This document shows positions 7,697 through 33,392 of a stretch of DNA of 64,000 bases, one piece after another. Source of the stretch: Ostreococcus lucimarinus (taxonomy: Eukaryota); NCBI GenBank assembly GCA_000092065.1, contig CP000600.1; one strand, 5' to 3'. Every line of letters begins with the position of its first letter. Position 1 is the stretch's first letter. Below the pieces are notes generated by a model. That model was given only the letters and a program-made list of their open reading frames with translations. It did no database searches and was not told the DNA's origin. The position numbers and the translations under genes are program-made.

Positions 7697-7783
7697 GCGC
7701 CGAGGTGTGCGGAGCCGACGCGACGCGCGACGAGGCGAACGACTCGCGCGGCGCGCGTGGATTACAAAACGCGGCGGCGACGA

Positions 7784-9070: not shown

Positions 9071-9274
9071 GTCGACGCGATGTGACGCCGCCGAGCGCCA
9101 TCGCGCGACGCGTCGCGCCGCGATTCGACGCGCCCGACTTCGCGCGTCGACGCCGCGCGCGCGCGCGCGCGAGAGCGCTCGACGCGCGTCGTCGACGGCG
9201 ACGCCGGGACGCGGCGACGCGGATTCGGGACGCGGCGCGCCGAGGACGGATCGAAGATTTAAAATTAAATCAAA

Positions 9275-10384: not shown

Positions 10385-10445
10385 CTTGGGCGATTAGCGA
10401 GCGTTGAGTGTAATTCATTAAAATCAATATGCCACGAGACGGGTC

Positions 10446-11576: not shown

Positions 11577-11652
11577 GGCGTCGCGTCGCGGAGTGTCGAA
11601 TCGCGACACTCATCCGCGCGCGACGCGCGAACGACGCCGACGCGCGCGCGGG

Positions 11653-12534: not shown

Positions 12535-12616
12535 TCGATCGGTGCCGTCGTTGTACGTGTGTAATGAACCAACCAATTTGTTTTCTTTGTTTTACATGTG
12601 CTAGTACACCGCGCAG

Positions 12617-14377: not shown

Positions 14378-14429
<52 letters not shown>

Positions 14430-14533
14430 GATTCCGCGCGCATTCGCCGTCGCAGCGCCTCGCTCGCGTCCGCGACCGCGCGCGCGGCGCGCTCGGCGTC
14501 GACGGCGTCGTCCCACGCGTCCCACGCGTCCAT
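12617..14533 (-). CDS. SNF2-family DNA-dependent ATPase, SMARCAL1/ZRANB3-like subfamily
   Basis: ATG at 14533 (MDAWDAWDD). Motif I VLIGDEMGLGKTVQACALLA; DEAH-box region IVVCDESHFLKD; motif VI HRIGQQSSVLVQYLHAKDTIDEIIWQ. Poly-Thr tract (TTTTTTTTTATTATTAPTT) encoded by (gtc/cgt)n at ~14390-14430. Confidence 0.8.
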
Positions 14534-14792
14534 CGTCGCGACGCGCCGCCGCGAAGCGCCGCCGCGACGCCGCCGACCGCGCGCGCGCGAGTGCCTCGTT
14601 CGCGCGACGGATCGGGCGACGGACGGGTTTTAGTATTGCGTCGTATCCCAAACCCTAGGATACAATATACATATTCAACGACCCAGTAGACGCATCGGCG
14701 CGCGCTGTAGATATACACGACACCGCACTGTATGCGCACACACGCAATCCGCGAGCCGGTCGCGATCGCGGCACACCTCGACGCATCCCGCG

Positions 14793-17700: not shown

Positions 17701-17949
17701 ACGGAGCGATTCAAGGATCGTCTCGTCGACGAGGGTTTCTCTCCGGCGTACGGTGCGCGTCCTTTGCGTCGCGCCATCATGCGCTTGCTTGAGGACAACC
17801 TCTCCGAGAAGATGCTCACGGGTGAGATTTCGGAGGGTTCGTCGTGCATTATGGACGTGAACGCGGAAGGTGAAATCACGGTGTTGACTGGCGACGGTAG
17901 AGAGCTGAAGGCTGGTAGCGCGATCGGTGGTCCGGCTGGCATCGCGTAA
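14793..17949 (+). CDS. CLPC: Chloroplast ATP-dependent Clp protease chaperone subunit ClpC (Hsp100); 3 exons: join(14793..15029,15169..15255,15523..17949)
   Basis: Exon 1 (from ORF 14793..15275): transit peptide [31 protein letters not shown]...RAMFE. Donor gtgcgc at 15030. Exon 2 (frame shift +1; acceptor cgcgcag at 15166-68): [29 protein letters not shown]. Donor gtgagt at 15256. Exon 3 (acceptor gacag at 15520-22, ORF 15454..17949 frame): [92 protein letters not shown]..., two AAA+ modules ([16 protein letters not shown]; [12 protein letters not shown]). Junctions MFE|RFTEKAIKV and GTEQ|IMLGLIGEG reproduce the conserved ClpC N-domain exactly. Intron lengths 139 and 267 nt fit the frames. 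Confidence 0.85.
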
Positions 17950-18256
17950 TTCTAGGCTGCGAGAACGCTTAAAAAATGATTGATTACAAAATGACTTTTG
18001 TTCTTTGGGGGTCACCCCATCATCAGCGTCGGAGCCTGTGTTATTAGGCGATTTAGATTACGTGTCTCTCACGCATGTTATACGATGAAACGAGCGAATT
18101 AACACCCGCGCGCGCCGAACCACATAAGTGACCTCTTCTCCTCTGAGCTCGTCAGTCCACGACACGGCCCGAATTCTCAGAGCAATTTGACAGATTGTTT
18201 TGATTGTTTGTATCGATTATCACAACTGTTGTATGTTCGTAACGTCGCAACGAATC

Positions 18257-21121
18257 CTAAGCCAGCAACTGAACCAAGTCCCCCCGTATAGAGCACGTCT
18301 CTTGCTCGACGAGTAACATCGCTGCGTCTCGAACTTCCTGCACGCTGAGCGCCATAGAACCGTCTCTCTCCGCGAGCATCTTTACCAACTCACTCAATCT
18401 AAGTCGACCGCTCGACGACGTCAAGCACGCCGTGATACCGTCAGCGATGACCTTGCGGTGTTGACGATCGCTCGCACTGTGTCCGGTTAAAATCTTGTCC
18501 ATGTCGATGGTGCCCGTTCGGGGATCGACGGCGGATTGTTGCATGGCGACGCGCATCAAACGCAACGCTTCCTTCGCGTCGTCGCGATCGACTCGGACGC
18601 TCAAGCGCATACGGGCGAGAGACTCTGAAAGACGGATCAAAGACTCCAACTGTCTCGGCGTCGCCGTGATCACTTTACGACTACCTCCCATGCGACGCAT
18701 CTCCACGTACCCTTCGACGAGCTCCTCCGCGGCTTCATCGCTCAGCACCGGTTGTACGTGAGATCGCGCGAAAGAAACGTAGTCGGTGAGCAACGACGCT
18801 TCAATCGCGCCGCGCTTCTTTTGCGGCGGATCTTTGTAGTGCAAGCTCACCAAGTGTCGCGCCAATCGTCGATCCGTCTCCGGGTTCGCGCGATCGAGCA
18901 AAAGGTACAACAAATCGAAACGCGAGAGAAGCGTGGGCGGAAGCTGAATGTTCTCCACCATGGACATATTTGGGTTGTATCGACTCCCCACCGGGTTCGC
19001 GGAGGCAAGCACGGATGTTCGCGCGTTTAACACGGCGATGATGCCAGCCTTGGCGATGGAAACCGTTTGTTGCTCCATGACTTCGTGCAACATCGATCGA
19101 GCGCTATCAGACATTTTGTCAAACTCGTCGATGCAACAAATTCCTCTATCGGAAAGCACAAGGGCTCCAGATTCAAGAACCATGTCCTTTGATTCCGGAT
19201 CGCGTGTGACGTACGCCGTGAGACCGACCGCTGAGGAACCTCTGCCCGAGGTGTACATGCCGCGCGGCGCGATGCGGTGGACGTACGTCAACAATTGCGA
19301 CTTGGCCACCCCCGGATCACCGACTAGTAAAACGTTTATATCACCGCGAACTTTATTTGCTGCGGTGCCACTGAATGTCTTGTTCGTCGCCCCGAAGAGT
19401 TGGCACAGTAGCCCTTTCTTCACGTCTTCCAACTCCCAAATCGACGGCGCGAGCGACGCCACGAGACGTTGGTAAATATCCGGCGATCGCCCGAGCTCTT
19501 CGATCTCCGCCGTCCTCGCCGGAGTGAACTCGAGTTGGGCGTTCGGATTTTGATTGCTCGCCGGTTTCGATGCGCGCTCGGCGGAAGAATGCTTCGCCGC
19601 TTCGTCGTCTTCGGTGCCCGCGGTGTTTCGCATGCGATTACCGGCGTCTTTTCTAATGTGAATAATGTCCAAGTACGTCTTGTACACGCTCTTCAACGTC
19701 CTTCGCGTCGAACTGATGCGAATCGGCACGGCGCGGTACACTCCCGTGACTTCCACGCGATCGCCGGGTTTGGCTTGGTCGACGAGTTCGTCGAAAACGC
19801 ACATCGAAACAGTGTGTGGGGTTTCACCCTCGGGAATCGCGTCCGGCGTCTCTTGCATTTTGACGGTTTGCTTGTTCGCGAAGACGCACTGGTTATGAAT
19901 CAACGTCATCGTCCCTGGCTTTCCGCACTCCGTACACTTGAGCGGGGGCTCGTTCACGCGTCCACGATCAACCTGAACGTGCTCGGGGGCGAACCCGCAC
20001 ATCAAGCATTTGAAGTACGCGAGCTTCAGATCGGGAATAATCGTCGTGCATCGCGTCACCATCCCGCGCACGCACACCATCTTGTCAATATCCGAAGGAT
20101 TCAAGTCACGCATCGGCTTGGCGTCCATCATGTTGAACGGTCGAACGATGATTCGCGCGGCGGGCGTGTCCTCGTCCATATCTTCGGGCGCGACGACGTT
20201 TTCCAAAAAGTATTCGTTCGCCACGACATCAAAGAGCGGAATGATCTCTTGCGGATAATGAATCAACTGCTTGTACAAAAACTCATCGTACTCGTGCACG
20301 TGTTGACAATCCAAATCCAAGTGCGTGTGCTCTTTTTCGTAAATCTCTCGCATGCGCTCGTCGTAGTACGAATCCGCGGAGTCGGGCAATTCAAAGTTTT
20401 CGATAAACCTCCGAAAGCGCTGCTGCGTGTCGAGCACGTTCACCCTCGTCCCCCAAATGTACGTCTGCGCCGCCACCTCATCCCGCTGCGCCTGCGCCGC
20501 GTGCAAGTGTTCGCCCGCGCTCATCGGCGGCGACGCCAAGAAATCCGCCGCGTCCTGCGTCGCCGTCAACTGTGTCATCTCCTGCGTCCCGTATCGTTGA
20601 CTCGCCCCCGGCGCGCCGAATCCGTCGTCGTCCCCGTCCGTCACCCGCCTCGCCCTCGCGCTCCCATTCAGCCCCAAATCGCTCCTCGGCGTCGCTCTCG
20701 GCGTCCCAAACAATCTCGGCGTCCCAAACTGTCCCTGTCCCTGTCCCTGTCTCGCCGGCGTCACCGCCTCCCGCGTCCCGTTCGCCCCGCTCGACCGTCG
20801 CCGCGCCGGCGGCGAAAACAAATCCTCCATCGGGCTCCCTCTCCCTCGTCCCGCGCCCTCGGGCCCCCCGACCGCCCGCGCCCGCGGCGGCGACATCAAC
20901 CCCACGTCCGCGCCCGCGCTCGCCCCGCCTCGCCCCCCCGACCGCGTCGGCGCCGCGTTCTCGTCGTCCTCGTCCCCAGCTGTCGTCGCGATCGCGACGT
21001 CCCGCCCGTCCCGCGTCGTCGTCTCCGCGTTCGCGTCGCTCAGCCGTCGTCGCGTCGTCGCCGGCGACGCCGACGGCAACCTCGACGGCGCCTTCCTCGG
21101 GCTTCGTCGCGGCGTCGACAT
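18257..21121 (-). CDS. MCM4: DNA replication licensing factor MCM4
   Basis: First ATG at 21121 ([23 protein letters not shown]...; the ORF-track start 21208 is GTG). Zn finger CLMCGF..CTECG; Walker [12 protein letters not shown]; Walker B/arginine finger [31 protein letters not shown]...[11 protein letters not shown]. Ser/Thr-Pro-rich N-tail is typical of MCM4. A TGTAA-type signal (ttttgtaatc, minus strand) lies in the shared 3' UTR zone at ~17980. Confidence 0.85.
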
Positions 21122-21495
21122 CGCCGTCGAGCGCGTCGCGGTGTCGCGCGGCGTTTGAAATCCGCCGCGCGCGCGATTCAAACGCGCGACGAGACTGGGT
21201 TTACACACGGACGCATCGATCCCCCGTCGACCGGTCGCGACTCGACGACGCGGGGGGTCCGCGTCGTCGATCGGTCGGATCGTATATAGGCGTTCGACGC
21301 CGCGATGTGCGACGCGCGCGCGCGATTTTCATTTACGTCGCGGGTTCAGGGTCGCGCGACGTCGGCGACGTCGGCGCGCGCGCGGGCGCGACGCGCGCGC
21401 GCGACGCGCGGCACACCGCGACGACGTCGCGACCGACCCACGAGGCGCCGCACGTCGCGCGTCGACACACGCCACCGCGCACCACGAGCTCGAAC

Positions 21496-22476
21496 ATGTT
21501 CGCGCGAACCATCGGCCGCGCGCGCCCCGCGCGCGCGACGCCCGCGGACAAGCGCGCGGACAAGCGCGCGGCGGCGACGCGCGCGATGACGCGCCCGGTC
21601 GCGCTCGGCGACGCGCGCGCGGTATTTACGACGAGCGCGTTCAGGGCGAACGCGGTCGAGCGCGCGCGCGACGTGCGCGCGCGCGGGGCGAGACGGTCGA
21701 CGGTGATGGCGGCCAAGGTGGCGGGGTACATCAAGCTCGCGATCGAGGCGGGGAAGGCGTCGCCGGCGCCGCCGATCGGACCGGCGCTCGGCGCGAAGGT
21801 GCGTGAGAATATTTCGTTCGACGCGACGACGGCGCGCGCGGGACGCGCGCGCGGACGCGCGCGAGGGAGGGGTGGGAGAACGCGCGCGGCGGGTGAGGGT
21901 GGAAGACCTAGGCGAGAGAGGGTTTCGCGCGGCGACGCGAGCGCGCGAGGGACGACGGCTGGGCGCGACGCGCGGGCGCGGTGGCGAGGGAGACGCGCGC
22001 GCGATGGATCGATGGTCGCGGGGGACGCGCGCGGCGCGGTCGGGACGCGAGTGGTGCGGTGAATCGACGCGAACGGCGACTGACGACGACGACGACGCGC
22101 GCGCGCGATTCGCGGCACGCAGGGCGTGAACATCATGATGTTTTGCAAGGAGTACAACGCGCGCACGCAAGATCAACCGGGTATGATCATCCCGGTCGAG
22201 ATTACCGTTTTCGAGGATAAGTCCTTCACGTTCATTTTGAAGACCCCGCCGGCGTCGGTGTTGTTGAAGAAAGCCGCGGGCGTGCCCAAGGGGGCGGGCG
22301 ATCCGCAAAAGCAAGTCGTCGGGCGCGTGACCAAGGAGCAACTCGAGGAAATCGCCAAGATTAAGATGCCCGATTTGAACTGCGTCAAGGTGGAAAGTGC
22401 GATGAAGGTCGTCGCCGGTACCGCGGCGAACATGGGGATCAAGATTGACGGCTGGCCCGAGGTCGACGCCGCGTAA
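21496..22476 (+). CDS. RPL11: Organellar (plastid or mitochondrial) ribosomal protein L11, 2 exons: join(21496..21798,22123..22476)
   Basis: Exon 1 (in ORF 20572..22062 frame): presequence [24 protein letters not shown]..., then [31 protein letters not shown]. Donor gtgcgt at 21799. Acceptor cacgcag at 22120-22. Exon 2: [54 protein letters not shown]..., stop at 22474-76. Bacterial-type L11 signature PPVGPALG|QGVNIM..FCK.FNA.T is restored across the splice. TGTAA signal at ~22606. Confidence 0.8.
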
Positions 22477-23388
22477 AGCGCGACGACGACTGCGGACGCC
22501 CCGTCGTAGCCGAGACGAAGGCGCGCCGAAGAACATTCTTACGCTCCCGTGGCGATAAATTCATATAAATTGCTCGAAGACCTCGCGTAGTGGTCTGCGT
22601 TAGATTTGTAAATGCTTTATACCTAGTGATGAAAACGAACGCCCCCTCGACTCGCGAAGAGACGACCCTCGCGCGCCCAAGCCCTATCCGCGAAACGCGA
22701 ATCGGTGCGTGTGAATTATAACAATGCTACGCTGACGACGCCCTACTTCTTCAACTCCCGGTGAAGCGTGTGCTTTTGCAAGAACGGATTGTACTTCATC
22801 AACTCCAATCTCTGCGACGTGTTACGACGGTTCTGCGAATCGAAAACGAGCGCGCCTCCGTCAGTCCTTCGTCCCGAAACCCTCAAATCGTCCCGTCGTC
22901 CCATCCCTCGTCGTCCCGCGCCGTCCCGCGCCGGCCTCGGCGCGCGTCCCGCGCGCGCCCGCTTCGCCTCGCGTTCGCCCGCGCGTCATCGCTTACCTTC
23001 TGGGTCATGTATCGCGACATCCCCTGCACGCCGCTCTCCTTTTGCTCGGTGCACTCGAGGGTGACTTGCAGGCGCACGTCCTTCTTCTTGCTCGCCGCCG
23101 TGACGACGAGCGCGCCGCGCGAGCGCTCTCTGGCGCTCGCGGCCGACGGGCGCGCGGCGAGCGAGCTGGTGGAGCAGACGTTGGCGCGGGCGGCGAGCAT
23201 GGCGAGTCGCGGCGCGGAGTGCCGGCGCGGCGATCGGGCGGCGGACGTCGGCATCGCGCGCGTGTGCGCAAACAGTACGCGTGTACTTTTATGGGGTGGT
23301 CGGTCGGACACCGCGCGCGCGAACCGCGCCCGAACCGCGCGCGCCGACGCGCGCGACGCGAGTCCGCGACGCCGACGCGCGCGCCGTC

Positions 23389-24082
23389 ATGTCCGCCGAC
23401 GCCTCGACGCGACGATTCAAGATTTACACCAAGACGGGCGACGCGGGGACGAGCTCGCTGTACAATTGCGAACGACGCGATAAGGACGACGCCGCGTTCG
23501 ACGCGCTCGGGGACGTCGACGAGTGCAACGTCGCGTGCGGGATCGCGCGGGAGTTTTGCGTCGATGAAAACAACGGGCTCGAGGCGCAGGTGCGGCGTCG
23601 ACGACGACGGACGCGAGGGGAGAGAGCGAGGCGACGACGCGCGGCGAGCGACGACTGACGGGGACGACGAACGACGCGACGCGCAGCTCGCGGAGATTCA
23701 GAGTCGATTGCTCGACGTGGGATCGGCGGTGGCGACGCCGCTGTATGCAAGCTCGGACGCGATGAAAGCGCGCGCGGCGTTTTCGGAGACGCACGTGGAG
23801 ACGTTGGAGGGATGGATCGACGGGATGGACGCCGAGTTGCCGGCGCTGTCGAGTTTTCTGCTCGTGTCGGGGGGGAAGGCGAGCGTGTTTTTACACCAAG
23901 CGCGCGTCGTGTGTCGACGCGCGGAGCGTAGGTGCGTGCCGTTGGTGCGGAGCGGAGCGGTACCGGACGTGGTGCGGGTGTACTTGAATAGATTGAGCGA
24001 TTACATGTTCACCGCCGCGCGTTTCGCGGCGATGAAAGCGGGCAGAGAGGAGGAGGCGTACAAAAAGTCGACGGCGAATTGA
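23389..24082 (+). CDS. MMAB: ATP:cob(I)alamin adenosyltransferase, PduO/MMAB type, 2 exons: join(23389..23589,23687..24082)
   Basis: Exon 1: MSADASTRRFKIYTKTGDAGTSSLYNCERRDKDDAAFDALGDVDECNVACGIAREFCVDENNGLEAQ (compare the family consensus KIYTKTGDKG.S...ERR.KDD..FEA.GT.DEL). Donor gtgcgg at 23590. Acceptor gcgcag at 23684-86. Exon 2: LAEIQSRLLDVGSAVATPLYASSDAMKARAAFSETHVETLEGWIDGMDAELPALSSFLLVSGGKASVFLHQARVVCRRAERRCVPL... Intron 97 nt, consistent with the +1 frame change between ORFs 23281..23658 and 23042..24082. Confidence 0.8.
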
Positions 24083-24160
24083 ATCGGGACGTGTCGAAAT
24101 AATCGAGCGAGCTTGCAAATACTACGTCTACGTTAGGTGTACAAATGATCTATTCAACGC

Positions 24161-24931
24161 TCAGTCGTCGAAGAGCGACGCCGCGAGCTCTTCGACCGTG
24201 TCGAAGACGACGTGGAAATTTCGCGCGTTGGCTTCTTCGCGCAAATCGTGCGACCCCCAATTCACGCCCACCGCCAACATCCCAGCCGACTTCGCCGCCG
24301 CACCGTCGCTCGGTGCGTCCCCGACGTACGCCATCGATCGATCGATGCCGTCGAGGCCGAGCTCGCGCGCGATTTGAACCAACCCATCCGGCTCTGGCTT
24401 CGCTCGCGGCACGTCGTCGGCGCCGTACACGCGCGCCATCACATCCACGCATTCGTTCGCCGCGATCACCGCCCGCGCGTACGCCCCGCACGCGTTACTC
24501 AGCACCGCCTGTTTTCTCCCCTCTTCGCGCAATCGCACGACGATGCGGGCGATTCCGGGGTAAAATCCCGCCGTCGTCGTCGTCACGAGCGCCACGTATG
24601 CGTCGTCGAACGCCGCGCCGAGCGCCTCTCCGCACGCGTCGTCCGCGTTCTTCGTCGCGTGCCACGCGAGGCGACGGGGCGTGGTATAGCGCGTCCCGCG
24701 CAGGTACTCGTCGCGCGTGATCTCGCGCAGCGCGGCGTCGCGCAGGACTTTGTTGGTCGAGCTGAAGCCCAGCTCGGTGCTGTCGGCGAGCGTCCCGTCG
24801 ACGTCCCAGAGGACGACGCGCGCGCGGCGCAGGGCCGCGCGGTTCGAATCGCCGCGCGACGCGCTCGAGGCGCGCGCGGCGGTGGCGCCGCGCGTCGCGC
24901 GCGGCGGCGGCGACGCGCCGAGAGTCGCCAT
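24161..24931 (-). CDS. HAD-superfamily hydrolase, subfamily IA (CbbY/phosphoglycolate-phosphatase-like)
   Basis: First ATG at 24931 (MATLGASPPPRATRG...). Motif I VVLWDVDGTLADST; motif IV-like AYVGDAPSDGAAAKSAGMLAVGVNWG. Confidence 0.7.
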   Translation of the reverse strand: MATLGASPPPRATRGATAARASSASRGDSNRAALRRARVVLWDVDGTLADSTELGFSSTNKVLRDAALREITRDEYLRGTRYTTPRRLAWHATKNADDACGEALGAAFDDAYVALVTTTTAGFYPGIARIVVRLREEGRKQAVLSNACGAYARAVIAANECVDVMARVYGADDVPRAKPEPDGLVQIARELGLDGIDRSMAYVGDAPSDGAAAKSAGMLAVGVNWGSHDLREEANARNFHVVFDTVEELAASLFDD

Positions 24932-25011
24932 GTGCGGGCGCGCCGGATGAAAGAGTATAATGACAACGCTAATTCGGTGCTCGTTCGGCGCGATGATCGT
25001 ACAGTACATGA

Positions 25012-25866
25012 TTATGATTTTTGTGGTTTGACGGCAGACTTGTTCGCGACGGCGGCGAACTGGTCGGTGATGGCGTCGAAGGCGTGGACGCACGCGCCGA
25101 GGGCGCGTCGCGACGTCGATTTCGCAAAATCCGTGGCTTCGTCCAATGTCGGCGCGCGGATGTCGCCCTTGGCGTGCGCTTGCTTGAGCTTTCCCGCCGC
25201 CGTTGTGGCGTGTTGTTTCGAGTAGTCGAACGCCTTTGTAGTCGCCGAGCGCACGTGGGGCGCGGCGAAGTCGACGAATTTCTTCGTCGCGGCGAGCGCC
25301 GACTTGGCCGCCTCGGCGGCTTTTTCGCCAGCTCCGGGCCCGAGTGGGGCCTCGTACGTCGACTGCTTGAACGTCTCCTTGACTTCACGCAAAGGCGCGA
25401 CGGGGATACCGAGCTCGGACGCCATGTGTACGACTTGCTCGCGATATCGCAGCGCGTCTTGAAACTCTTGGTTACTCTCCACTCTTCGCGCGTGGGCCTT
25501 GTGCACGAGCGCATTCGCCTCATGAATCGCGCGCACCAGCTTGGGATGCTCGGCGATGACGTCGTATGCTTCGCCATCGGCATGATGCCGCTCGACGATC
25601 GGTTCGACGTCGTGGGATACCGTCGGCGTCGGCGCGACTGGCGCCTCCGACTCTGGCGTCTCGAACGAGCGCTCGTTCACGGACACCACGCGCACCGCCG
25701 CGTCGGTCGCTTCTGTTTCGTCGCTCGACGTCGACGCAGATATCACGGCGGTATCCTCGACGTCAGCGCCGACGTCCGATCTCGTCGACGCGTCCGCCCG
25801 CTCGTCGGCGGCGCCTTCCGGCGCCGGCGCCGAGACATCCTTCGGCTTTTCTTCAACCTTAAAATT

Positions 25867-25904
<38 letters not shown>

Positions 25905-26628
25905 CTCCCGCGGGCCCGGTCGCGCGCATCGTCTTCGCCGCCTTCGCCCTCGCCGCCTCCTTCGCCTCGTCCAATCGCTTCGCGAGCTTCGCCGCCTCGT
26001 CGTCTCGCTCGACGCGCCGCTTCGCCAGCGTCTCCGACTCTCGCGTCTCCATCGCGTATTTCTCCCGCTCCGCGCGCGTGGGCTTTATCCCGCGAAACAC
26101 CAACCACGCAACGGGCGCCAGCATCGTCGACACCACGCCCGCGAAGAGCGCGCCGCCGTCCGCCGCCACTCTCGCGCGTCTTCGGTCCGCGCGCGCCCAC
26201 GACGCCGCCCTCGACGCGTCGTCCTCGCCGTCGCCCTCGCCGTCGCCGTCGCCGTCGCCGTCGCGGCCGTTCGATCCGCCGTCGCCGTCGCCGCCGTCGT
26301 CGTCGTCGCCGTCGTCCCGGGACGTCGAGCCGCGCGCGTCGCGCGTCGTCGCGTCGTCGCGTCGCGTCGCCGCGTGCCCCTCGGCGTCGCGCGCGCGCGC
26401 GTCGCTCGGCGCGTCGTCGGCGCCCGGCGCGCGCGACGTCGGCGTCGCGAGCGACGAGACGTCGCCGTCGTCGCCGAGCGAGGCGCGCGAGGACGCGCGC
26501 GCGCGCGCGCGGGGCGCGATTGCGCGCCGACGCGAATTCGCGAATTCGCCGACGCGCGCGGGACGCGCGCGGGACGCGCGCGCGGACGCGCGGACGCGCG
26601 AGGCGGCGCGCGAGGACGCGGCGCGCAT
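25012..26628 (-). CDS. Hypothetical protein (transit-peptide-like N-terminus, one predicted TM helix, coiled-coil-like region) with coding hexamer microsatellites
   Basis: ATG at 26628. N-terminus [26 protein letters not shown].... TM-like ALFAGVVSTMLAPVAWLVF. (gccgtc)x6 at 25862-25900 encodes ATATATATATAT, and (gtcgcc)n at ~26215-26290 encodes DGDGDGDGEGDG in the same protein. No recognisable domain. Confidence 0.45.
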
Positions 26629-26779
26629 CGCGCGAGGTCGCGGCGGCGCGGCGCGAGGCGAGACGACGGACGGTCGTCGAGTGCGGGCGCGGCGCGCGAA
26701 CGCGGCGGTTGGTCTGGCGAGCCGACGCTCGGCGCGCGAATGGTTAAAAGCTACTACGTGCGCGCGCGCGTCGGTGAAT

Positions 26780-28648
26780 CTAATCTTCGTCCATGGCGTC
26801 GACGTCGCGCGCGGCGTCGTCGGCGTCGGAGTCGTCGTCGTCCTTGATCTCCACCTTGGGCTGCGAACCGCCGGCGCGGTAGGCTTCCATCTCGCGCTCG
26901 TATCGAATCTTGTCCTCGTCGGCTTGTTGCTGGTACACGCTCTTTTCTTCGTCGGTGATCGTCTTCCACTTTTCGCCGAGCGCCTTGGCGACGTCGGTGA
27001 CGCCGAACGAAGGGTTAGCGGCGGTGATTTCGGCGCGCTTGGCGGCGGAGAAGAACATGTACGCGGACAAGCCTCGTTTCGGAGCGTTCGGATCCTTCTT
27101 CGCGCGTTTGGCTTTGGGCGACTTCTTCGACTTCTTCGCGCCCTCGTCGCTTTCGCTGTCGGAATCGCTGTCGGTGGGCTCGCCGCCGTCGGACTCGCTT
27201 CCCGCGGCGAAGTCTTCGTCCTCTTCGCTGTCGTCGTCGCCGCGTCGCGCGTAGCCTTCGTCGTCGTCGTCCGAAGCTTCGGCGATGAGCTGGTCCGCGC
27301 GCGCGTTGGCGTCGACGTTGGAGATTCTCACTTGTTTGGCGGTCAAGAAGTTAACCAAGTTCTGGAACTCCGACCGTTGAATGCCGTGGAAATCGTACGA
27401 TGAGCCATTCTTCATATTCACAGAGACGTCAAACGTCCTGCCGCTCGTCGCGCCCTGCGCGCTGTGACGCTCAAACTCAACCTCATCGACTTCGCTGTAG
27501 TGCAACAACAGCGGAGGTTTGGGCAAGTAGAAGAACGCTTTTTCAAGCGGGTACAGTAGGCCGACGTCAGCCTTGTGCGACACGCGGATGGCGTGTCCGC
27601 CCGCCGAGGCGGTGAATAAGCTTTGTCTCGTCAACTTGACGCCAGCCATGTTTTTCAATACGCGCACGAAGACTTCTCCCGAGGAGCCGTCGTAAGTCGA
27701 CTCGAGGGTGGGGAACTTGTCTTTCATGTCTGCAGCCAAGTTTGGTTCCACCGTGAGATGATCGTCGTCGTTGAACATGGCGAGAATGTGCGGGTAAAAC
27801 GTTTGTCCCTTGCGAATCGGTGGGTCGAGCGCGATGACCGCGTGCGACTGGTTCGAGTGCGGCTTCGGAAGCAAGTACACGCGAACGATGGAGCTGTACT
27901 GAACCTTGAAGTCCAGCGTCGAGGATTGCATGCGCATGTGCGTGTTGTGCAACTCGATCGAAACCTTGCCTCTCGGGACGACCATGGAGACGCCGTCGAA
28001 TTCCGCCACGGGTTCGCCCGCCTCGGCGTCGGCGGCGGCGATCGACATGATCGCCGCGTGCAAACGCTTCGCCGCGGTGTCATCGGGATCTTCCATATCG
28101 TCTCCTTTCCAAGTCTCGCTGCCCGGCGGAACGTAAAACGACATCTCCACCAAAGAATCCTTCTCCGCCGCCGTGTCGTCGTGGTGAAATTGCAAGACGA
28201 CGTCGCTCTTCCCGACGACCGTCGCCTCGGAGATGTACTGCCCATCGATCTCAAACGCCGTCTTCCCACCGACCTCAAACACCGTCCCGCTCCCCTCGAT
28301 CGCGACGTCGCCCCAGTTCCGTCCGTTCACGTTCATCTTCGTCTCGCCGCTCGCGCACCCCAGCTCGCGCGCCGCGTACTCCGCCGCGTTCTTCGCGTCC
28401 TCCGTCCCCATCCCTCCCAGCACGAGCGTCCGTCCGTCCGTCGATCGCACTCGCAGCACCCCACCCGTCGGCGCGTCGCTCCATCGCACCTCGCGCACCT
28501 TCCCCGCCTCGATCTCCGTCTTCTTCTGCTCGCCCGCGCCCGTCGCCGCTCGAAACCGCGCGCCGATCGCCTTGCTCAGCGTCAACTCTCCCTGCGTCCC
28601 GCTCCCGCGTCCGAGCGCGCGCGCCGCGACGGTAAACTCCGCGCTCAT
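26780..28648 (-). CDS. SSRP1: FACT complex subunit SSRP1 (POB3-like domains plus C-terminal HMG box)
   Basis: ATG at 28648 (MSAEFTVAARALG; 622 aa counted). The ORF-track 1002-aa version is an Arg-rich upstream read-through. Mid domain ...VSIELHNTHMRMQSSTLDFKVQYSSIVRVYLLPKP.... Acidic SDDDDEG...SDSDSESDEG. HMG box KKDPNAPKRGLSAYMFFSAAKRAEITAANPSFGVTDVAKALGEKWKTITDEEKSVYQQQADEDKIRYEREMEAY. Confidence 0.85.
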   Translation of the reverse strand: MSAEFTVAARALGRGSGTQGELTLSKAIGARFRAATGAGEQKKTEIEAGKVREVRWSDAPTGGVLRVRSTDGRTLVLGGMGTEDAKNAAEYAARELGCASGETKMNVNGRNWGDVAIEGSGTVFEVGGKTAFEIDGQYISEATVVGKSDVVLQFHHDDTAAEKDSLVEMSFYVPPGSETWKGDDMEDPDDTAAKRLHAAIMSIAAADAEAGEPVAEFDGVSMVVPRGKVSIELHNTHMRMQSSTLDFKVQYSSIVRVYLLPKPHSNQSHAVIALDPPIRKGQTFYPHILAMFNDDDHLTVEPNLAADMKDKFPTLESTYDGSSGEVFVRVLKNMAGVKLTRQSLFTASAGGHAIRVSHKADVGLLYPLEKAFFYLPKPPLLLHYSEVDEVEFERHSAQGATSGRTFDVSVNMKNGSSYDFHGIQRSEFQNLVNFLTAKQVRISNVDANARADQLIAEASDDDDEGYARRGDDDSEEDEDFAAGSESDGGEPTDSDSDSESDEGAKKSKKSPKAKRAKKDPNAPKRGLSAYMFFSAAKRAEITAANPSFGVTDVAKALGEKWKTITDEEKSVYQQQADEDKIRYEREMEAYRAGGSQPKVEIKDDDDSDADDAARDVDAMDED

Positions 28649-30000
28649 CTCGCCGAGCCGTTCGGCGTCTCGATCGCGCGTCTCAATCGCGCCGCGCGTC
28701 GCCTCGAAGCTCTTTCGCGATGCTTTTTGAAATCCAAAAGATCTCGCGTTCGCGTCGCGTCGTCCGCCGTTCGCGCGTCGTTCGCGCGTTCGCGCGTTCG
28801 CGCGTTCGAGACCGCGACCGAGGCGCTTCGGCGCGCGGTCGCTCGCCTCGTCGCGCGCGCGGTCGCGGCGTCGGCGTCCGCGGCGTCGCGCGCCGCGCGT
28901 CGCGCACAGGGAGGCGAGCGAAACACGGACCAGTCTCACGGATACGAAACGACACAACACGGACCGGTGACCCGAAACGACGCCGACGGTCGCGCGCGCC
29001 GTCGACGCCGACGCGCGCGACGACGATGGCGCGCGCGCCGGCGACCGACGGCGGCGACGCGGCGTCGGCGTTTCGCGCGCGCGATGACGGCGCGAGACGC
29101 GCGTATAACGTCGAGATCCCGGCGGCGTGGCAGCGCGAGAGCGTGGACGAGTCGCTGCTGCGAGGGCACAGAAGCGCGTGTACAACGGCAACGCGCACTG
29201 ATCGTCGTACGCGTACACGCCTCGCGATCGCCCCGAGCGCCGAGGAGGGCGCCGCGACCGTCGCCCTCCTCGAGCGAGGTTTCGCGAACGCGCTTGCTCG
29301 CGACGAGCTCCGGCGCCGCGCAAAGCTTCGCGAGACGACTCGCAGCCGCGCGCGCACATATCGCTCGGTCGCCCGCGTCTTGACCGGGCGCGAGCGCGAT
29401 TTGCGCGAGCCGCGCGAAATTTCGGTCCCCCGCGACGCGCGCGTTCTCCGCCACGCGTCGTTGGCGTCGCAGAAACTTTTTCGCGTGCGTCTTCTTCGTC
29501 ATGCCTCCATGTGACGTTTCGTCTCGGCGTCTCGACCTCGTGACGCGCGCCTCGGACGCGCGCGAGGGCACCTCGGCACTCTGCGACGCGCGCGCGACTC
29601 GGCGCGGTCGTCGCGGACGCGTCGCGAGAGAAGAAAAAAAGTCGAGCGTCGAACCGCGCGTCGTTCGAGCGCCGCGCCGCGGCGCGCGCGACGCGCGGAC
29701 GCGCGAGATGGGGCGCGTTGAAGCGGCGTTTCTCGGCGCCGGATCCCGCCTCGGGCGGCGCCTCGGGCGTCGCGCGCGCGACTAGCAAGACACGAAAACG
29801 AAGGAAAGAAAGCGGGTACGAATTCTTTTGAATCGATGTGCGCGGCGATGGACGCGCGCGCGCGCGTTCGCGCGCCGACTCGCGCGATCGTCATCTCCGA
29901 GACGGGCCGCGCAGACTGACCCTCGCGCAGAGGCCGACGCCAGAAGACACGCGAAACAAGGCGGCGATAGCGTACAAACTATCGCTCGCCTGCGGCAGGT

Positions 30001-30033
30001 TAACCCAGGGTTGACCCAGGGTTGACCCAGCCG
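30001..30033. repeat. Tandem 11-mer (gggttgaccca)x3 inside the 1.7-kb gene-free spacer between SSRP1 and Cpn20
   Basis: Seen directly: taacccagggttgacccagggttgacccagccgcag. Confidence 0.8.
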
Positions 30034-30380
30034 CAGCATTACACCCTCGCGACGCGAGGACGCGAAGGAGGGACAGCTCGCTCGCGCGATCTCGTAGCCC
30101 TCGAAAGTAGCGATTGTAATGCGCCGGAAGACTTCCATCGAGTCGCTTCGCCGAGAGAGCGCCGACGACGTCGAGCGCGGCGCCGCCGTCGCAGACGCCG
30201 CCGCCTCCCCGCGCTAGCCTACCCTCCCAATATTAGTATACTTCACCCACCGTCGTTTTCTTCCCCATCGCGCGTCGCGCGACGACGTCCACGACGTCTC
30301 CAAATTCCGCGCGCGCCGCGGAGGCGTCCTTCCAGAAGCCGACGCCGCGCGCGCGTCCTCATTACTCGCCGCACATCCGA

Positions 30381-31280
30381 ATGTTCGCCGTCTCCGCGCA
30401 CTCGCGCGCGCGCATCGCGCCCGCGGTCATTCCGCGCGCGCGCGCGCGCGTCGTCACGCGCGCCGGCGCCGCGTTCGAGGTGCCGTCGGCGTACAAGACG
30501 GTGACGCCGTGCGGCGCGGGCGTCTTAATCAAGGTGGCGGCCGCGGAAACGGTGACCAAGGGCGGGATCGTGCTCACGGAGAGCGCGCAGCGCAAGCCCA
30601 CGAGCGGTGCGTCGACGCGTTCGACCGACGCGCGCGCGCTCGAGGACGGGCGACGCGACCGCGCGACGCGCGCGGGGGATAAAGGACGACACCCTAACCT
30701 TGAGGGTTTGACGGCGGGACGCGCGGCGAGACGCGCGAGACGCGAATGGATCGACGCGCGAACGCGAGCGACGCGCGAAGACTGACGACGATGACGAATG
30801 AATCGCGCAGGCGACGTCACGGCGATCGGACCGGACGTGAAACACGTCAAGACCGGTTCCACGGTGTTGTACAGCAGATTCGGCATCGGGTGCACCGACG
30901 TGGTCGTCGCCGGCGAGGAGTACACGATGATTCGAGAACAAGATCTCATCGGTACGCTCCCGAGCAGCGGCGCGCGCGCGAACGATATCCCAAAGCTTCA
31001 ACCTTGCGGCGATCGCGTCCTGTTGTCGGTGGAGAAGGCGGCCGCGGAAACCAAGGGGGGCATCTTACTCACGGAGGGGTCCAAGGAGAAGCCCATCGTC
31101 GGCACCGTCGTCGCCGTCGGGCCGGGCAAGGCGGGCGAAAAAGACGAAGAAGTCAAGCCGATGACCCTGAAGGCGGGCGACAAGGTGATTTACTTCAAGT
31201 ACGCCGGTGACCAAATGACCGACGAGGAAGGCAACGGCTTCGTCGTCTTGCACGAGAGCGACTGCTTGGCCAAGCTTTAA
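30381..31280 (+). CDS. CPN20: Chloroplast 20-kDa co-chaperonin Cpn20 (double GroES), 2 exons: join(30381..30606,30811..31280)
   Basis: Exon 1: MFAVSAHSRARIAPAVIPRARARVVTRAGAAFEVPSAYKTVTPCGAGVLIKVAAAETVTKGGIVLTESAQRKPTS+G. Donor g|gtgcgt (30607). Acceptor cgcgcag (30808-10). Exon 2: (G)DVTAIGPDVKHVKTGSTVLYSRFGIGCTDVVVAGEEYTMIREQDLIGTLPS, then second GroES domain LQPCGDRVLLSVEKAAAETKGGILLTEGSKEKPIVGTVVAVGPGKAGEKDEEVKPMTLKAGDKVIYFKYAGDQMTDEEGNGFVVLHESDCLAKL. Intron 204 nt, phase 1. Confidence 0.8.
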
Positions 31281-31745
31281 GCCGCGCGCGCGTCGCGTCG
31301 CTCGTTTAGAACGTCGACGTTGTGAGTACCAGCGCCGGATCGAACGTCGAACCGACACATCGCAGAGCCTTCGCCGCGCGCGTCGCGTCGCGTCCTCCCC
31401 TCGCGTCCTCGCCCTCGCCGACAAAAAAGAACGCAACGCGTAAACAGAAACCACGATACTCGCTCCGCGCGAACCCGCGCGTCGGCGCCTTCGCCGCGCG
31501 ATCGGCGCGATCGCTTACGGGCCGATCCATCGACCGACCGCGCGCGCGCGTACGCGCAAACAGTCTCGCGATCGAACCACCACCCAATAAACCACCCATC
31601 GCATTGAAATCACGCATTCAAAGACCCCGAACCGGTATCGATCTCCACCCCGCGCCGCCCGACGCGACGCCCGTCGCGCGCGCGGTCGATCGCGCGATCG
31701 CGCGCTTCGTCGCGCCGCGACACTCCCGCACGCGCGCACAGGACC

Positions 31746-33152
31746 ATGCAAGTCAACGCCCTGCTCAAGAAAGCCGCCCCCGCGCCCGCCAAGACCGCCA
31801 AGGCGCCGGCGAAGACGCAGATCAAGAAGGCGCCGGCGAAGAAGGCGTCGCCGTCGCTGCCGTCGCTGCCGAATCCGTTCGGCGGCGCCGCGCCCAAGGC
31901 GAGCGCGAAGACGGTCAAGAAGGCCGCGCCGGCGAAGAAGGCGGTCGCGAAGAAGGCGCCGGTCAAGAAGGCGCCGGTCAAGAAGAAGGCGCCGGTCGCG
32001 AAGAAGGCGGCCAAGTCGCCGACCGCGGCCAAGGAGGCGCTCGCGAAGTGGTACGGTGCGTATCTTTTAAAGGCGATCGGATAGGATCGTTCGACGCGCG
32101 CGACGACGCGCGGACGCGCACAGGACGCGCGCGCGCGATGGGAATCGATCGTTAAGTGCGCGTTCGCGCGAACGGGGCGACGCGGGACGCGCGCGCGGGA
32201 GGACGCGTGGCGGAAATCGGAAGATATGGTTGCGATCGCGCGCGCGGGACGGAGGCGGGACGCGGGACGGACGCGCGCGAGGGACGATAGAGCGGGCGCG
32301 AGGGACGCGCGGCACGCGGGGGGGTGAGAAGGGCGAAGGAAACGCGCGCGATGGGGAGACTGACGATGCGCGACGACGCGTTCGACGCAGGTCCGGACCG
32401 TAAGTTGTACTTGCCGGGCGGCCTCTTGACCAAGGCGGATTTGCCGAGCTACCTCGACGGTACGCTCGCGGGTGATTACGGCTTCGACCCGCTCGGCCTC
32501 GGCGCCGACGGTGCGATCAAGCAATACCGCGTCGCGGAAGTCATCCACGCTCGATGGGCGATGCTCGCGATCCCGGGTGTCGTCATCCCGGAGGCGCTCG
32601 GCTTGCCGGGCGGCGTCTGGACGGAAACCGGCAAGGTGTTCCTCGACGGCGAAACCGGCCGTCCGTTCTTCCTCGAGAACCCGATCGTGTTCGCGGCCGT
32701 CCAAGTTGCGCTCATGGCTGGTGTCGAGCAATTCCGCTCGAGCGGTGAAGGTCCGGCCGGTTTCGTGCCGTTCAAGGGCAAGTTCGACGAGTCGGCGTTC
32801 AAGGGCCTCGACCCGATCAACCCGGGTGGCCCGCTCGACTTCTTCAACGTCGCCTCCAACCCGCAAGACTTGGCCCTCTTGAAGGTCAAGGAAATCAAGA
32901 ACGGTCGCTTGGCGATGATCGCCATGTTGGGCGTCTTCGTGCAAGGTCTTACCACCGGTGAAGGTCCGGCTGCCAACTGGGGCAAGCACGTCGCCGATCC
33001 GTTCGGTACGTAACGCGCGCGCGCGCCTCGCCCATCGACGACCGCGTTCGCGTGTTTTCCACGAGCACTCACTGACCCCGCTATCTCTCGTCTCCCACGC
33101 AGGTTACAACTTCGTCACCCTTCAAGCCGTCGACCGCACGCCGGTTCTTTAA
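31746..33152 (+). CDS. LHC: Chlorophyll a/b-binding light-harvesting protein (LHC family) with a long Lys/Ala/Pro-rich N-terminal exon; join(31746..32055,32391..33013), or with a candidate terminal intron join(31746..32055,32391..33005,33103..33152)
   Basis: Exon 1 ends ...AKEALAKWY+G (donor g|gtgcgt at 32056). Exon 2 starts (G)PDRKLYLPGGLLTKADLPSYLDGTLAGDYGFDPLGLGADGAIKQYRVAEVIHARWAMLAIPGVVIPEAL...KVKEIKNGRLAMIAMLGVFVQGLTTGEGPAANWGKHVADPFG. The splice rebuilds the LHC hallmark WYGPDR. First and third helix motifs E..H.RWAML and E.KNGRLAM are present. See findings for the optional 3' intron (gtacgtaa...cactcactgacc-polyPy-acgcag). TGTAA signal at ~33233. Confidence 0.8.
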
Positions 33153-33392
33153 GCGCGAGTTTGAAACAATTTTTCAAACTTTTGTGACGCGACCTGTTCA
33201 TGTATAGCCGCTCGACCGGCTCGCTCGTTCACTTGTAACGGAAGACCGTGATATTCAACCACGACGCGCTCGACGCGTCGGCGCGCGACGCGTCACATCA
33301 CCGATAGCTGCCGCCAGCGCGCATCTCTCTCCAGTCGTCGCCGCGTCGCCGCGCGCGCCGCGCCGCACTCGGCGCCTCCGCGCGGCGTCGTC

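What the first reader, a model, noticed from the sequence alone, without database searches (positions are those of the whole stretch)
33006..33102. Candidate 3'-terminal intron in the LHC gene, atypical for this locus (polypyrimidine tract)
The LHC ORF ends ...ADPFGT-taa, but the stop codon sits inside a perfect donor context TTC G|GTACGTAA. 97 nt downstream is cactcactgaccccgctatctctcgtctcccacgcag|GT TAC AAC TTC..., which has a branch-like CTGAC, a polypyrimidine tract rare in this GC-rich DNA, and a CAG acceptor. Splicing 33005 to 33103 keeps the frame (intron 97 nt, phase 1) and continues into ORF 32958..33152, giving a C-terminus ...HVADPFGYNFVTLQAVDRTPVL. This resembles the LHC C-terminal 'ADP..N.(A)TNFVPGK' region better than the unspliced end does. 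It would be the only 3' intron here and structurally unlike the GC-rich introns above.
Basis: partly seen in the sequence, partly recalled or inferred. Interest (0 to 1): 0.55.

Follow-up and report, generated by a model that had tools for sequence, protein, structure and literature searches.

The report
Real, already-annotated last intron of CP26
The proposed 97-base intron near the end of this light-harvesting (CP26/Lhcb5) gene of the tiny marine alga Ostreococcus lucimarinus is real and is spliced exactly as predicted, but the public gene model already includes it, so it is an ordinary feature.

Summary
Window 33006-33102 is a 97-nt, phase-1 GT-AG intron. It has the donor G|GTACGTAA, the branch motif ACTGAC (A at 33075, 27 nt before the acceptor) and the acceptor ACGCAG|GT.

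Three polyadenylated transcript contigs that are 100% identical to the window, plus one from a related strain, join 33005 directly to 33103. The spliced 324-aa protein is residue-for-residue identical to RefSeq XP_001422513.1, "putative CP26" of Ostreococcus lucimarinus CCE9901. Its exon-3 tail, GYNFVTLQAVDRTPVL, is the conserved CP26 C-terminus from Bathycoccus to Arabidopsis.

Database proteins ending ...ADPFGT are prokaryote-style ORF calls on genomic DNA that start inside intron 1. They are not orthologues.

"Atypical" is only partly right. The intron carries the species' standard ACTGAC branch motif at a normal distance and is GC-rich (66%). However, unlike seven other introns in the window (all GACTGACG, purine-rich), it is pyrimidine-rich and has non-consensus flanks.

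The intron is absent at this site from O. tauri, Bathycoccus, other Mamiellophyceae, Coccomyxa, Edaphochlamys, Marchantia and Arabidopsis. It is present at the same site and phase in Tetradesmus. This suggests, but does not prove, a lineage-specific gain.

Verdict: already known, low interest.

The parts
31746..32055 (+). CP26/Lhcb5 exon 1. It runs from the ATG through an Ala/Lys/Pro-rich N-terminal region to ...AKWYG, ending in phase 1.
   Evidence: cDNA blocks end at 32057, with a G/GT alignment ambiguity. The protein equals XP_001422513.1.
32056..32390 (+). Intron 1: 335 nt, GTGCGTA...GACTGACG...ACGCAG, purine-rich, 70% GC.
   Evidence: It is absent from cDNA contigs L001, L009, L010 and L011. 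The same WYG|P position carries an intron in Arabidopsis, Marchantia, Coccomyxa and Tetradesmus.
32391..33005 (+). Exon 2, encoding the chlorophyll a/b-binding domain up to ...HVADPF + G(1/3).
   Evidence: Pfam PF00504 covers residues 122-289, E = 2e-40. The cDNA block 32390-33007 is 100% identical.
33006..33102 (+). Intron 2, the finding itself: a 97-nt, phase-1, U2-type GT-AG intron.
   Evidence: It is missing from four transcript contigs, which join 33005|33103. It is present in genomic and metagenomic contigs L004, L005, L008 and L017-L024. Between two haplotypes it is 78% identical while the flanking exons are 99.8-100% identical.
33006..33012 (+). 5' splice site GTACGTA. The species consensus is GTGCGTG. 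The in-frame TAA at 33011-33013 overlaps it.
   Evidence: The consensus is from Irimia & Roy 2008, PMC2483917. The TAA is not conserved in the L004/L005/L023 haplotype, which reads GTACGCATCG.
33071..33076 (+). Branch-point motif ACTGAC. The presumed branch A is at 33075, 27 nt before the acceptor G at 33102.
   Evidence: ACTGAC is found in 87% of EST-confirmed non-chromosome-2 O. lucimarinus introns. The motif and its left flank CACTCACTGAC are invariant between haplotypes. Use of this A as the branch point is inferred, not measured.
33077..33099 (+). Pyrimidine-rich (C-rich) stretch between the branch motif and the acceptor, 18 of 23 pyrimidines.
   Evidence: only 1.6% of 23-nt windows reach this level. 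It stays pyrimidine-rich in the L004 haplotype (my count of 16 of 23 on the sequence). The corresponding tails of seven other introns are 33-54% pyrimidine.
33100..33102 (+). 3' splice site CAG, in the context ACGCAG|GT.
33103..33152 (+). Exon 3 coding part. It completes the Gly codon and encodes YNFVTLQAVDRTPVL, with the stop TAA at 33150-33152.
   Evidence: The tail is conserved in Mamiellophyceae, core chlorophytes and land plants and aligns to the last residues of solved CP26 chains.
33153..33261 (+). 3' UTR, with TGTAA at 33234-33238 and poly(A) addition at about 33258-33261.
   Evidence: cDNA contigs L009-L011 match up to 33258-33261 and then continue as A-runs. TGTAA was read. Its role as the green-algal poly(A) signal is established knowledge and was not tested here.

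Best explanation
Window 33006-33102 is the second and last intron of the nuclear gene for CP26 (Lhcb5), the minor monomeric antenna protein of photosystem II, in Ostreococcus lucimarinus or an identical genotype. It is an ordinary U2-type GT-AG spliceosomal intron that appears to be constitutively removed.

The likely mechanism is as follows. The 5' splice site G|GTACGT is recognised. The branch adenosine in ACTGAC (33075) attacks it. The CAG at 33100-33102, 27 nt downstream, is used as the acceptor. This joins G(33005) to GT(33103-33104), which rebuilds a Gly codon and reads on through 15 more codons (YNFVTLQAVDRTPVL) to the TAA at 33150-33152, giving the 324-aa protein.

The TAA at 33011-33013 is intronic and is a by-product of the GTACGTAA donor. 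It is the stop codon only of unspliced RNA, which would encode a 310-aa protein that lacks the conserved CP26 tail.

Shown: the splice junction, the polyadenylated mRNA structure, identity to the annotated protein, and conservation of the tail. Inferred: which A is the branch point, whether the pyrimidine-rich tract contributes to recognition, and the evolutionary origin. On origin, a gain in the O. lucimarinus lineage is more likely than retention of an ancient intron (roughly 60:40).
For: 1. Transcripts. L009, L010 and L011 are Logan assemblies of SRR28369231, SRR33975902 and SRR17229557. They are 100% identical to the window and align as three blocks..-32057 / 32390-33007 / 33102-33258..61, followed by poly(A). 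L001 is a JGI 1,106-nt contig from a related strain and shows the same two junctions. Only the 33005|33103 placement gives GT-AG ends.
2. The spliced translation is exactly P0121 = XP_001422513.1 / ABP00830.1, 'putative CP26', O. lucimarinus CCE9901, 324 aa.
3. The tail GYNFVT..(D/E)RTPVL is conserved in O. tauri, Bathycoccus and Mantoniella. Chlorophyceae have GYNLLTV..ERTPTL and land plants GNNLLTV..ERAPTL. Solved CP26 chains (6kac_S 2e-76, 7pi0_S, 5mdx_S, 5xnl_S, 3jcu_S) align through query residues 228-230 of 230, whereas LHCII-type chains score about 1e-42 and stop at 217-223.
4. The interval evolves as non-coding DNA. Between the two haplotypes the intron is 80/102 identical with indels, exon 2 is 614/615 and exon 3 is 53/53. 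The splice signals are conserved and the TAA is not.
5. The signals fit the published O. lucimarinus main-genome intron class, with ACTGAC in 87% of confirmed introns. The branch-to-acceptor distance of 27 lies within the 25-39 range of seven other introns in the window.
6. Evidence on origin. The site is uninterrupted in O. tauri-type L002 (TTCGGCTACAAC), L006, L007 and the Bathycoccus ORF P0037. It is also uninterrupted in Edaphochlamys, Coccomyxa, Arabidopsis and Marchantia.
Against: Nothing contradicts the splicing itself.
- The transcript evidence consists of assembled contigs, so a minority of intron-retaining mRNA is not excluded.
- The branch point has not been mapped.
- Recent gain is questioned by Tetradesmus obliquus, which has an intron at exactly the same codon and phase (TTCG|GTGAGT...CTGCAG|GCTACAAC). 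Intron loss is generally much commoner than gain in these streamlined genomes, so an ancient intron with many independent losses remains possible.
- I did not compare the window nucleotide-for-nucleotide with the GenBank chromosome record. The organism assignment rests on the exact protein match and the 100%-identical cDNAs.
Confidence: 0.97

Rival explanations
1. There is no intron. The gene ends at the TAA at 33011-33013, the protein ends ...ADPFGT, and the downstream ORF 32958..33152 is a chance open frame in GC-rich DNA.
For: A continuous ORF 32324..33013 exists. Many database 'proteins' end ...ADPFGT: P0004 on 254 contigs, P0131 on 327 contigs, and P0005.
Against: Those entries start inside intron 1 (MGRLTMRDDAFDAG.., MRDDAFDAG.., or a read-through of the whole of intron 1 in P0005). 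They are therefore gene calls on unspliced genomic or metagenomic DNA. Four transcript contigs lack the 97 nt. The RefSeq model is the spliced one. The tail encoded after the intron is conserved across green algae and land plants. In the L004 haplotype the TAA is absent and read-through would add 22 unrelated residues.
Confidence: 0.01
2. The intron is real, but its retention is regulated (for example by light or the diel cycle) to produce a C-terminally truncated CP26 ending ...PFGT. The immediate in-frame TAA would be a designed feature.
For: The stop sits only two codons into the intron, so a retained-intron mRNA would give a defined 310-aa product. As this is the last intron, such an mRNA would probably escape nonsense-mediated decay (inference). 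The signals deviate from the strict species consensus: GTACGTA against GTGCGTG and CACTGACC against GACTGACG.
Against: No retained-intron transcript was seen among the contigs retrieved. The TAA is not conserved in the sister haplotype. The truncated form would lose a tail that is conserved across green algae and land plants. O. tauri, Bathycoccus and other relatives lack the intron altogether and so could not use such a switch.
Confidence: 0.03
3. On origin: the intron is ancestral to Chlorophyta, shared with Tetradesmus, and was lost independently in all the other sampled lineages. It was not gained recently.
For: Tetradesmus obliquus has an intron at the identical codon and phase. Intron 1 of the same gene is demonstrably ancient, since WYG|P is shared with Arabidopsis, Marchantia, Coccomyxa and Tetradesmus. 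Mamiellales genomes are intron-poor through massive loss, and 3' introns are preferentially lost (established knowledge).
Against: It needs at least six independent losses: land plants, Coccomyxa, Edaphochlamys, Bathycoccus, O. tauri, and the L006, L007 and P0039 lineages. The alternative needs two gains. Other Mamiellophyceae CP26 genes carry 3' introns at different positions (FVQ|G, NGR|L), which suggests turnover or gain in this region. The intron's composition is unlike the seven other introns in the window.
Confidence: 0.35
4. The intron is a copy of a mobile introner element or transposon-derived intron family, as in Micromonas pusilla.
For: It is lineage-specific. Its composition differs from neighbouring introns. 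Introner families are known in the sister genus Micromonas (PMC4540971).
Against: There is no second copy in the 64-kb window apart from (CG)n matches. A degenerate pattern taken from its conserved 3' half found eight metagenomic contigs, and all are this same CP26 locus. Similarity to the flanking exons or to intron 1 does not go beyond (CG)n. No terminal inverted repeats, and no duplication beyond the obligatory G|GT, were seen on reading the ends. No Rfam family matched and the fold is unremarkable (z = -0.44).
Confidence: 0.03

Closest known systems
Annotated gene model for CP26 of Ostreococcus lucimarinus CCE9901 (XP_001422513.1 / ABP00830.1, UniRef100_A4SAX4)
   Same: The protein obtained by joining 31746-32055, 32391-33005 and 33103-33152 is identical over all 324 residues. 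The public model therefore already uses this intron.
   Different: Nothing at the protein level. I could not view the record's exon coordinates directly.
Main-genome (non-chromosome-2) spliceosomal introns of O. lucimarinus, as described by Irimia & Roy 2008 (PMC2483917)
   Same: GT-AG ends, a GTRCGT-type donor, an ACTGAC branch motif and a CAG acceptor. The length (97 nt) is near the published median of 111. The branch-to-acceptor spacing is within the local range.
   Different: It lacks the extended GACTGACG motif (CACTGACC instead) and the G at donor positions +3 and +7. On the sense strand it is pyrimidine-rich (62%; 78% in the tail), whereas the seven other introns in the window are 32-41% pyrimidine.
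CP26 (Lhcb5) of Chlamydomonas and land plants (PDB 6kac_S, 7pi0_S, 5mdx_S, 5xnl_S, 3jcu_S)
   Same: These are the best single-domain matches in the PDB and align end to end, including the exon-3 tail. The motif WYGPDR...DPFG(Y/N)N(F/L)(V/L)T...RxP(V/T)L is shared.
   Different: The Ostreococcus protein has a roughly 100-residue Ala/Lys/Pro-rich N-terminal region. In Arabidopsis and Marchantia the last exon is uninterrupted at PFG|NN.
Last intron of Tetradesmus obliquus CP26 (GCA_030272055.1, CP126222.1; locus L013)
   Same: It interrupts the same Gly codon of PFG|YN in the same phase 1.
   Different: It is about 290 nt, has a GTGAGT donor and a true T-rich tract, and shows no sequence similarity. 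Edaphochlamys and Coccomyxa lack it, so whether the two introns are homologous is unresolved.

Membership tests
U2-type GT-AG spliceosomal intron | The interval is absent from mature polyadenylated mRNA, with exact joining of the flanks | tested here: met
   cDNA contigs L001, L009, L010 and L011 join 33005|33103.
U2-type GT-AG spliceosomal intron | GT at the 5' end and AG at the 3' end | tested here: met
   GT at 33006-33007 and AG at 33101-33102. The three other placements allowed by the GGT alignment ambiguity are non-canonical.
U2-type GT-AG spliceosomal intron | A branch-point adenosine upstream of the acceptor that is used in lariat formation | not testable with these tools
   The motif ACTGAC is at 33071-33076, with its A 27 nt from the 3' splice site. 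Lariat mapping would be needed.
O. lucimarinus main-genome intron class (Irimia & Roy 2008) | Contains the ACTGAC branch motif (87% of confirmed introns) | tested here: met
O. lucimarinus main-genome intron class (Irimia & Roy 2008) | Extended GACTGACG branch motif (66.5% of introns) and GTGCGTG donor | tested here: not met
   The intron has CACTGACC and GTACGTA. This places it in the minority of the class that has the core motif without the extended one (87.2% against 66.5%). These are not obligatory features.
Ostreococcus chromosome-2 outlier-region introns (intron-dense region with weak signals) | Weak or no ACTGAC branch motif, GTRNGT donor, and location in the low-GC outlier region | tested here: not met
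   ACTGAC is present. The window is 63.5% GC, and neighbouring introns follow the main-genome consensus.
CP26 / Lhcb5 (minor PSII antenna) | Chlorophyll a/b-binding domain | tested here: met
   PF00504, E = 2e-40, 139 bits against a cutoff of 22.3.
CP26 / Lhcb5 (minor PSII antenna) | Closer to CP26 than to other LHC subfamilies | tested here: met
   CP26 chains score E = 1e-53 to 2e-76, against about 1e-42 for LHCII-type chains. Sources name the homologues 'LHCII chlorophyll a/b binding protein 5' or CP26.
CP26 / Lhcb5 (minor PSII antenna) | CP26-specific C-terminal tail ...DPFG(Y/N)N(F/L)(V/L)T...RxP(V/T)L | tested here: met
   It is present only in the spliced product.
CP26 / Lhcb5 (minor PSII antenna) | Binds pigments and sits at the CP43 side of the PSII core | not testable with these tools
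   Inferred from homology only.
   All the closest named homologues and solved structures are CP26/Lhcb5.
Introner elements / transposon-derived intron families | Many near-identical copies at unrelated loci | tested here: not met
   There is no other copy in the window. All eight metagenome hits to a degenerate intron pattern are this same locus. The search was limited to exact pattern matches, so it is not exhaustive.

The most novel reading that the evidence does not exclude
The intron is a young, single-copy gain in the O. lucimarinus lineage, inserted into the Gly codon of PFG|YN after the split from O. tauri. It has not yet acquired the lineage's strict signals: it has CACTGACC and GTACGTA and is pyrimidine-rich rather than purine-rich. 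It landed at exactly the site and phase that was hit independently in Tetradesmus. That would be a dated, non-introner intron gain with intron-less sister alleles available for comparison, and a case of parallel insertion at one site.
Probability: 0.55. Interest if true: 0.35.

Novelty: already known. Interest (0 to 1): 0.12.

Why it matters
For annotation, this confirms the public three-exon CP26 model. It also flags hundreds of metagenome-derived 'proteins' ending ...ADPFGT as truncated artefacts of prokaryote-style gene calling on eukaryotic DNA.

Biologically the intron itself is routine. The one point with some value is its presence or absence among close Ostreococcus relatives, combined with its off-consensus, opposite-skew composition. 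If it is a recent gain, it would be a small, clean example for studying how new introns arise and adapt in an intron-poor genome with unusually strict splice signals.

Tried and rejected
1. Introner or repeat origin. BLASTN-short of intron 2 and intron 1 against the window found only (CG)n matches. A degenerate pattern scan of metagenome contigs hit only the same locus.
2. Tandem-duplication origin or transposition from intron 1. Local alignments of the intron to 300 nt of each flank (both strands) and to intron 1 gave scores explained by the shared (CG)n run. Nothing was significant in the exonic flanks.
3. An embedded small RNA or structured element. Rfam found only a 17.9-bit chance hit elsewhere in exon 1. 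The intron's fold is no better than shuffles (z = -0.44).
4. Proteins ending ADPFGT as orthologue evidence. Rejected, because they are ORF calls starting in intron 1.
5. Two pattern-based candidate introns (23275-23686 and 46377-46632) could not be supported by coding context. They were left out of the comparison set.
6. Literature searches for a prior description of this intron, or of intron gain in Ostreococcus CP26, found nothing specific.
7. Taxonomic labels for the intron-less relatives L006 and L007 and for the L004 haplotype could not be obtained. The gain-versus-loss question therefore could not be placed on a named tree.
Full report
**The observation**

- The long ORF 32324..33013 ends ...HVADPFGT-TAA.
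- The TAA (33011-33013) lies within TTC G|GTACGTAA.
- Ninety-seven bases further on, ...cactcactgaccccgctatctctcgtctcccacgcag| is followed by GTTACAACTTC.
- Joining 33005 to 33103 keeps the frame (phase 1) and extends the protein by YNFVTLQAVDRTPVL to a TAA at 33150-33152.
- The 23 bases between CTGAC and CAG hold 18 pyrimidines. Only 1.6% of 23-nt windows of this 64-kb sequence reach that level on either strand. The tract is C-rich rather than U-rich.

**The gene**

The gene has a second, upstream intron. The structure is exon 1 at 31746-32055, intron 1 at 32056-32390 (335 nt), exon 2 at 32391-33005, intron 2 at 33006-33102, and exon 3 at 33103-33152.

The 324-aa product carries one chlorophyll a/b-binding domain (PF00504, E = 2e-40). 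It is residue-for-residue identical to P0121 = XP_001422513.1 / ABP00830.1, [quoted passage not shown].

Solved CP26 chains are the best single-domain PDB matches: 6kac_S at 2e-76, then 7pi0_S, 5mdx_S, 5xnl_S and 3jcu_S. They align to the last residues of the query. LHCII-type chains score about 1e-42, and their alignments stop before the tail. The gene is therefore CP26/Lhcb5, not a prasinophyte Lhcp.

**Direct evidence for splicing**

Three Logan transcript contigs come from independent sequencing runs: L009 (SRR28369231), L010 (SRR33975902) and L011 (SRR17229557). They are 100% identical to the window. Each aligns in three blocks...-32057, 32390-33007 and 33102-33258/33261, and then runs into poly(A). 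A JGI contig from a related strain (L001) shows the same two junctions.

The three-base overlap at each block boundary is the G|GT ambiguity. Only the 33005|33103 placement gives GT-AG ends. The poly(A) site lies about 21-23 nt after a TGTAA at 33234-33238.

**Evidence from conservation**

The exon-3 tail is the conserved CP26 C-terminus.
- Bathycoccus: ...HVADPFGYNFVTLNAVDRTPVL.
- O. tauri: ...NPFGYNFVTITSGIDRTPVL.
- Mantoniella: ...PFGYNFVTLTAIERTPVL.
- Tetradesmus and Edaphochlamys: ...PFGYNLLTVLG.E(E/D)R.PTL.
- Arabidopsis and Marchantia: ...DPFGNNLLTV....ER.P(T/S)L.

Many database entries end ...ADPFGT (P0004, P0131, P0005 and others, on hundreds of contigs). They begin with MGRLTMRDDAFDAG or MRDDAFDAG, which is intron-1 sequence, or they read through the whole of intron 1. 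They are prokaryote-style ORF calls on unspliced genomic or metagenomic DNA.

**Behaviour as non-coding DNA**

A sister haplotype (L004, L005, L023) carries the intron at the same place. Its version is 100 nt long, only 80/102 identical and has indels. Exon 2 is 614/615 identical and exon 3 is 53/53. The donor GTACG, CACTCACTGAC, the pyrimidine-rich tail and GCAG are kept. The TAA is not kept, and read-through there would add 22 unrelated residues.

No Rfam family matches the region, and the intron's predicted fold is unremarkable.

**Is it atypical?**

Partly. Irimia & Roy (PMC2483917) reported that EST-confirmed O. lucimarinus introns outside chromosome 2 have the donor consensus GTGCGTG. 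They also found that 87% contain ACTGAC and 66.5% the extended GACTGACG.

I identified seven other introns in the window.
- Intron 1 is confirmed by cDNA.
- RPL11 (21799-22122), PAC3 (34975-35079) and RPL33 (minus strand, 22996-22833) have Pfam domains whose reported coordinates span the junction.
- ClpC (15030-15168 and 15256-15522) and Cpn20 (30607-30810) have spliced products that match Clp_N and Cpn10 in two stretches each. The stretch crossing the junction was not listed, and the first ClpC junction rests on the conserved N-terminus MFE|RFTEKAIK.

| Feature | Seven other introns | Intron 2 |
|---|---|---|
| Branch motif | GACTGACG in all seven | CACTGACC |
| Donor | GTGCGT in four; GTGCGC, GTGAGT and GTAAGC in one each | GTACGTA |
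| GC content | 70-75% | 66% |
| Pyrimidine on sense strand | 32-41% | 62% |
| Pyrimidine in branch-to-acceptor tail | 33-54% | 78% |
| Branch A to acceptor | 25-39 nt | 27 nt |
| Length | 105-335 nt | 97 nt |

Intron 2 therefore has the core ACTGAC at a normal distance, identical to intron 1, and a normal length. It also has non-consensus flanks and the opposite strand skew. It is GC-rich, not "unlike the GC-rich introns". It is also not the only intron near a 3' end here: the RPL33 intron lies 29 codons and the PAC3 intron 48 codons before their stops.

**Origin**

The site is uninterrupted in all of the following.
- An O. tauri-type contig with conserved synteny Cpn20-CP26-DUF92-PAC3 (L002: CCGTTCGGCTACAAC).
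- Two further Mamiellophyceae contigs (L006, L007).
- Bathycoccus (ORF P0037) and the P0039 lineage.
- Edaphochlamys, Coccomyxa, Arabidopsis and Marchantia.

The site is interrupted, in the same codon and phase, in Tetradesmus obliquus (TTCG|GTGAGT...CTGCAG|GCTACAAC).

By contrast, intron 1 (WYG|P) is at a position shared by Arabidopsis, Marchantia, Coccomyxa, Tetradesmus and all Mamiellophyceae examined. It is therefore ancient. Other Mamiellophyceae carry 3' introns at different places (FVQ|G, NGR|L).

Two gains are more parsimonious than six or more losses. However, losses are common in these genomes and I lack a labelled tree, so I put lineage-specific gain at about 55-60%.

I found no source for the sequence. 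There is no other copy in the window. All eight metagenome hits to a degenerate intron pattern are this same locus. Similarity to the flanking exons or to intron 1 does not go beyond a (CG)n run.

**Verdict**

The feature is a real intron that appears to be constitutively spliced and is already built into the public CP26 gene model of O. lucimarinus. Its slightly off-consensus, pyrimidine-rich make-up and patchy phylogenetic distribution are mildly interesting for intron evolution but are not a new kind of element. Interest is low (0.12) and the novelty rating is already known.

Noticed in passing
window 15030-15168, 15256-15522, 21799-22122, 22833-22996 (minus strand), 30607-30810, 32056-32390, 34975-35079: Seven introns (ClpC x2, RPL11, RPL33, Cpn20, CP26 intron 1, PAC3) all carry the extended branch motif GACTGACG. 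All are strongly purine-rich on the sense strand (32-41% pyrimidine) and 70-75% GC. This uniform composition makes CP26 intron 2 the local outlier.
   Followed up: partly
window 32391-33005 compared with L004 196-810: Exon 2 is 614/615 identical between two haplotypes, and the single difference is non-synonymous (V to I). Their introns are only 78% (intron 2) and 88% (3' part of intron 1) identical. Synonymous sites seem almost frozen relative to the introns. Possible causes are very strong codon-usage selection, gene conversion, or hypervariable introns.
   Followed up: no
window 32055|32391 (intron 1 position, WYG|PDR): The phase-1 intron after WYG is at the same position in Arabidopsis (L015), Marchantia (L016), Coccomyxa (L014), Tetradesmus (L013) and all Mamiellophyceae genomic ORFs seen. 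It is an ancient position across green algae and land plants, kept even in this intron-poor genome.
   Followed up: partly
L013 about 3529-3812 (Tetradesmus obliquus CP126222.1): Tetradesmus CP26 has an intron in exactly the same Gly codon and phase as the Ostreococcus intron. Edaphochlamys and Coccomyxa do not. This is either parallel gain at one site or a deep retention.
   Followed up: partly
proteins P0039, P0046, P0047, P0052, P0053 and P0056-P0059 (relatives; no window coordinates): Other Mamiellophyceae CP26 genes are interrupted at different 3' positions, after ...FVQG / ...FLQ and after ...IKNGR. This is seen as ORFs that run into unrelated sequence there. It suggests intron turnover in the 3' third of this gene.
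   Followed up: no
window 31746-32040 (exon 1): A roughly 100-residue Ala/Lys/Pro-rich, highly basic N-terminal region precedes the LHC domain. It is present in all Mamiellophyceae CP26 sequences but varies in length, with in-frame indels between strains (for example AKKASPS against AASPS; the exon-1 cDNA block of L001 is 95.6% identical with two gaps). Its function is unknown.
   Followed up: no
window 33159-33179: A perfect 8-bp inverted repeat, GTTTGAAA-caatt-TTTCAAAC, sits just after the stop codon in the 3' UTR. It is also present in the related-strain cDNA L001. TGTAA at 33234-33238 precedes the poly(A) site by about 21-23 nt.
   Followed up: no
window 31509-31745: cDNA contig L009 starts at 31509, 237 nt before the ATG. 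L010, L011 and L001 start at about 31722-31739. This could be alternative transcription starts or read-through from the upstream Cpn20 gene.
   Followed up: no
window 30607-35079 compared with L002: The gene order Cpn20 (two GroES domains) - CP26 - DUF92 membrane protein - PAC3 is conserved between the window and O. tauri-type contigs.
   Followed up: partly
protein P0045 (ENA contig, 1,446 nt): In one relative the ORF continues after ...KEIKNGR with a different LHC-like C-terminus ([40 protein letters not shown]...). This could be an assembly chimera with another LHC gene or an alternative exon.
   Followed up: no
proteins P0195, P0244 and P0246: Plant CP26 sequences are deposited under Escherichia coli, Vibrio parahaemolyticus and Acinetobacter baumannii names. 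These are evidently contaminant contigs in bacterial assemblies.
   Followed up: no
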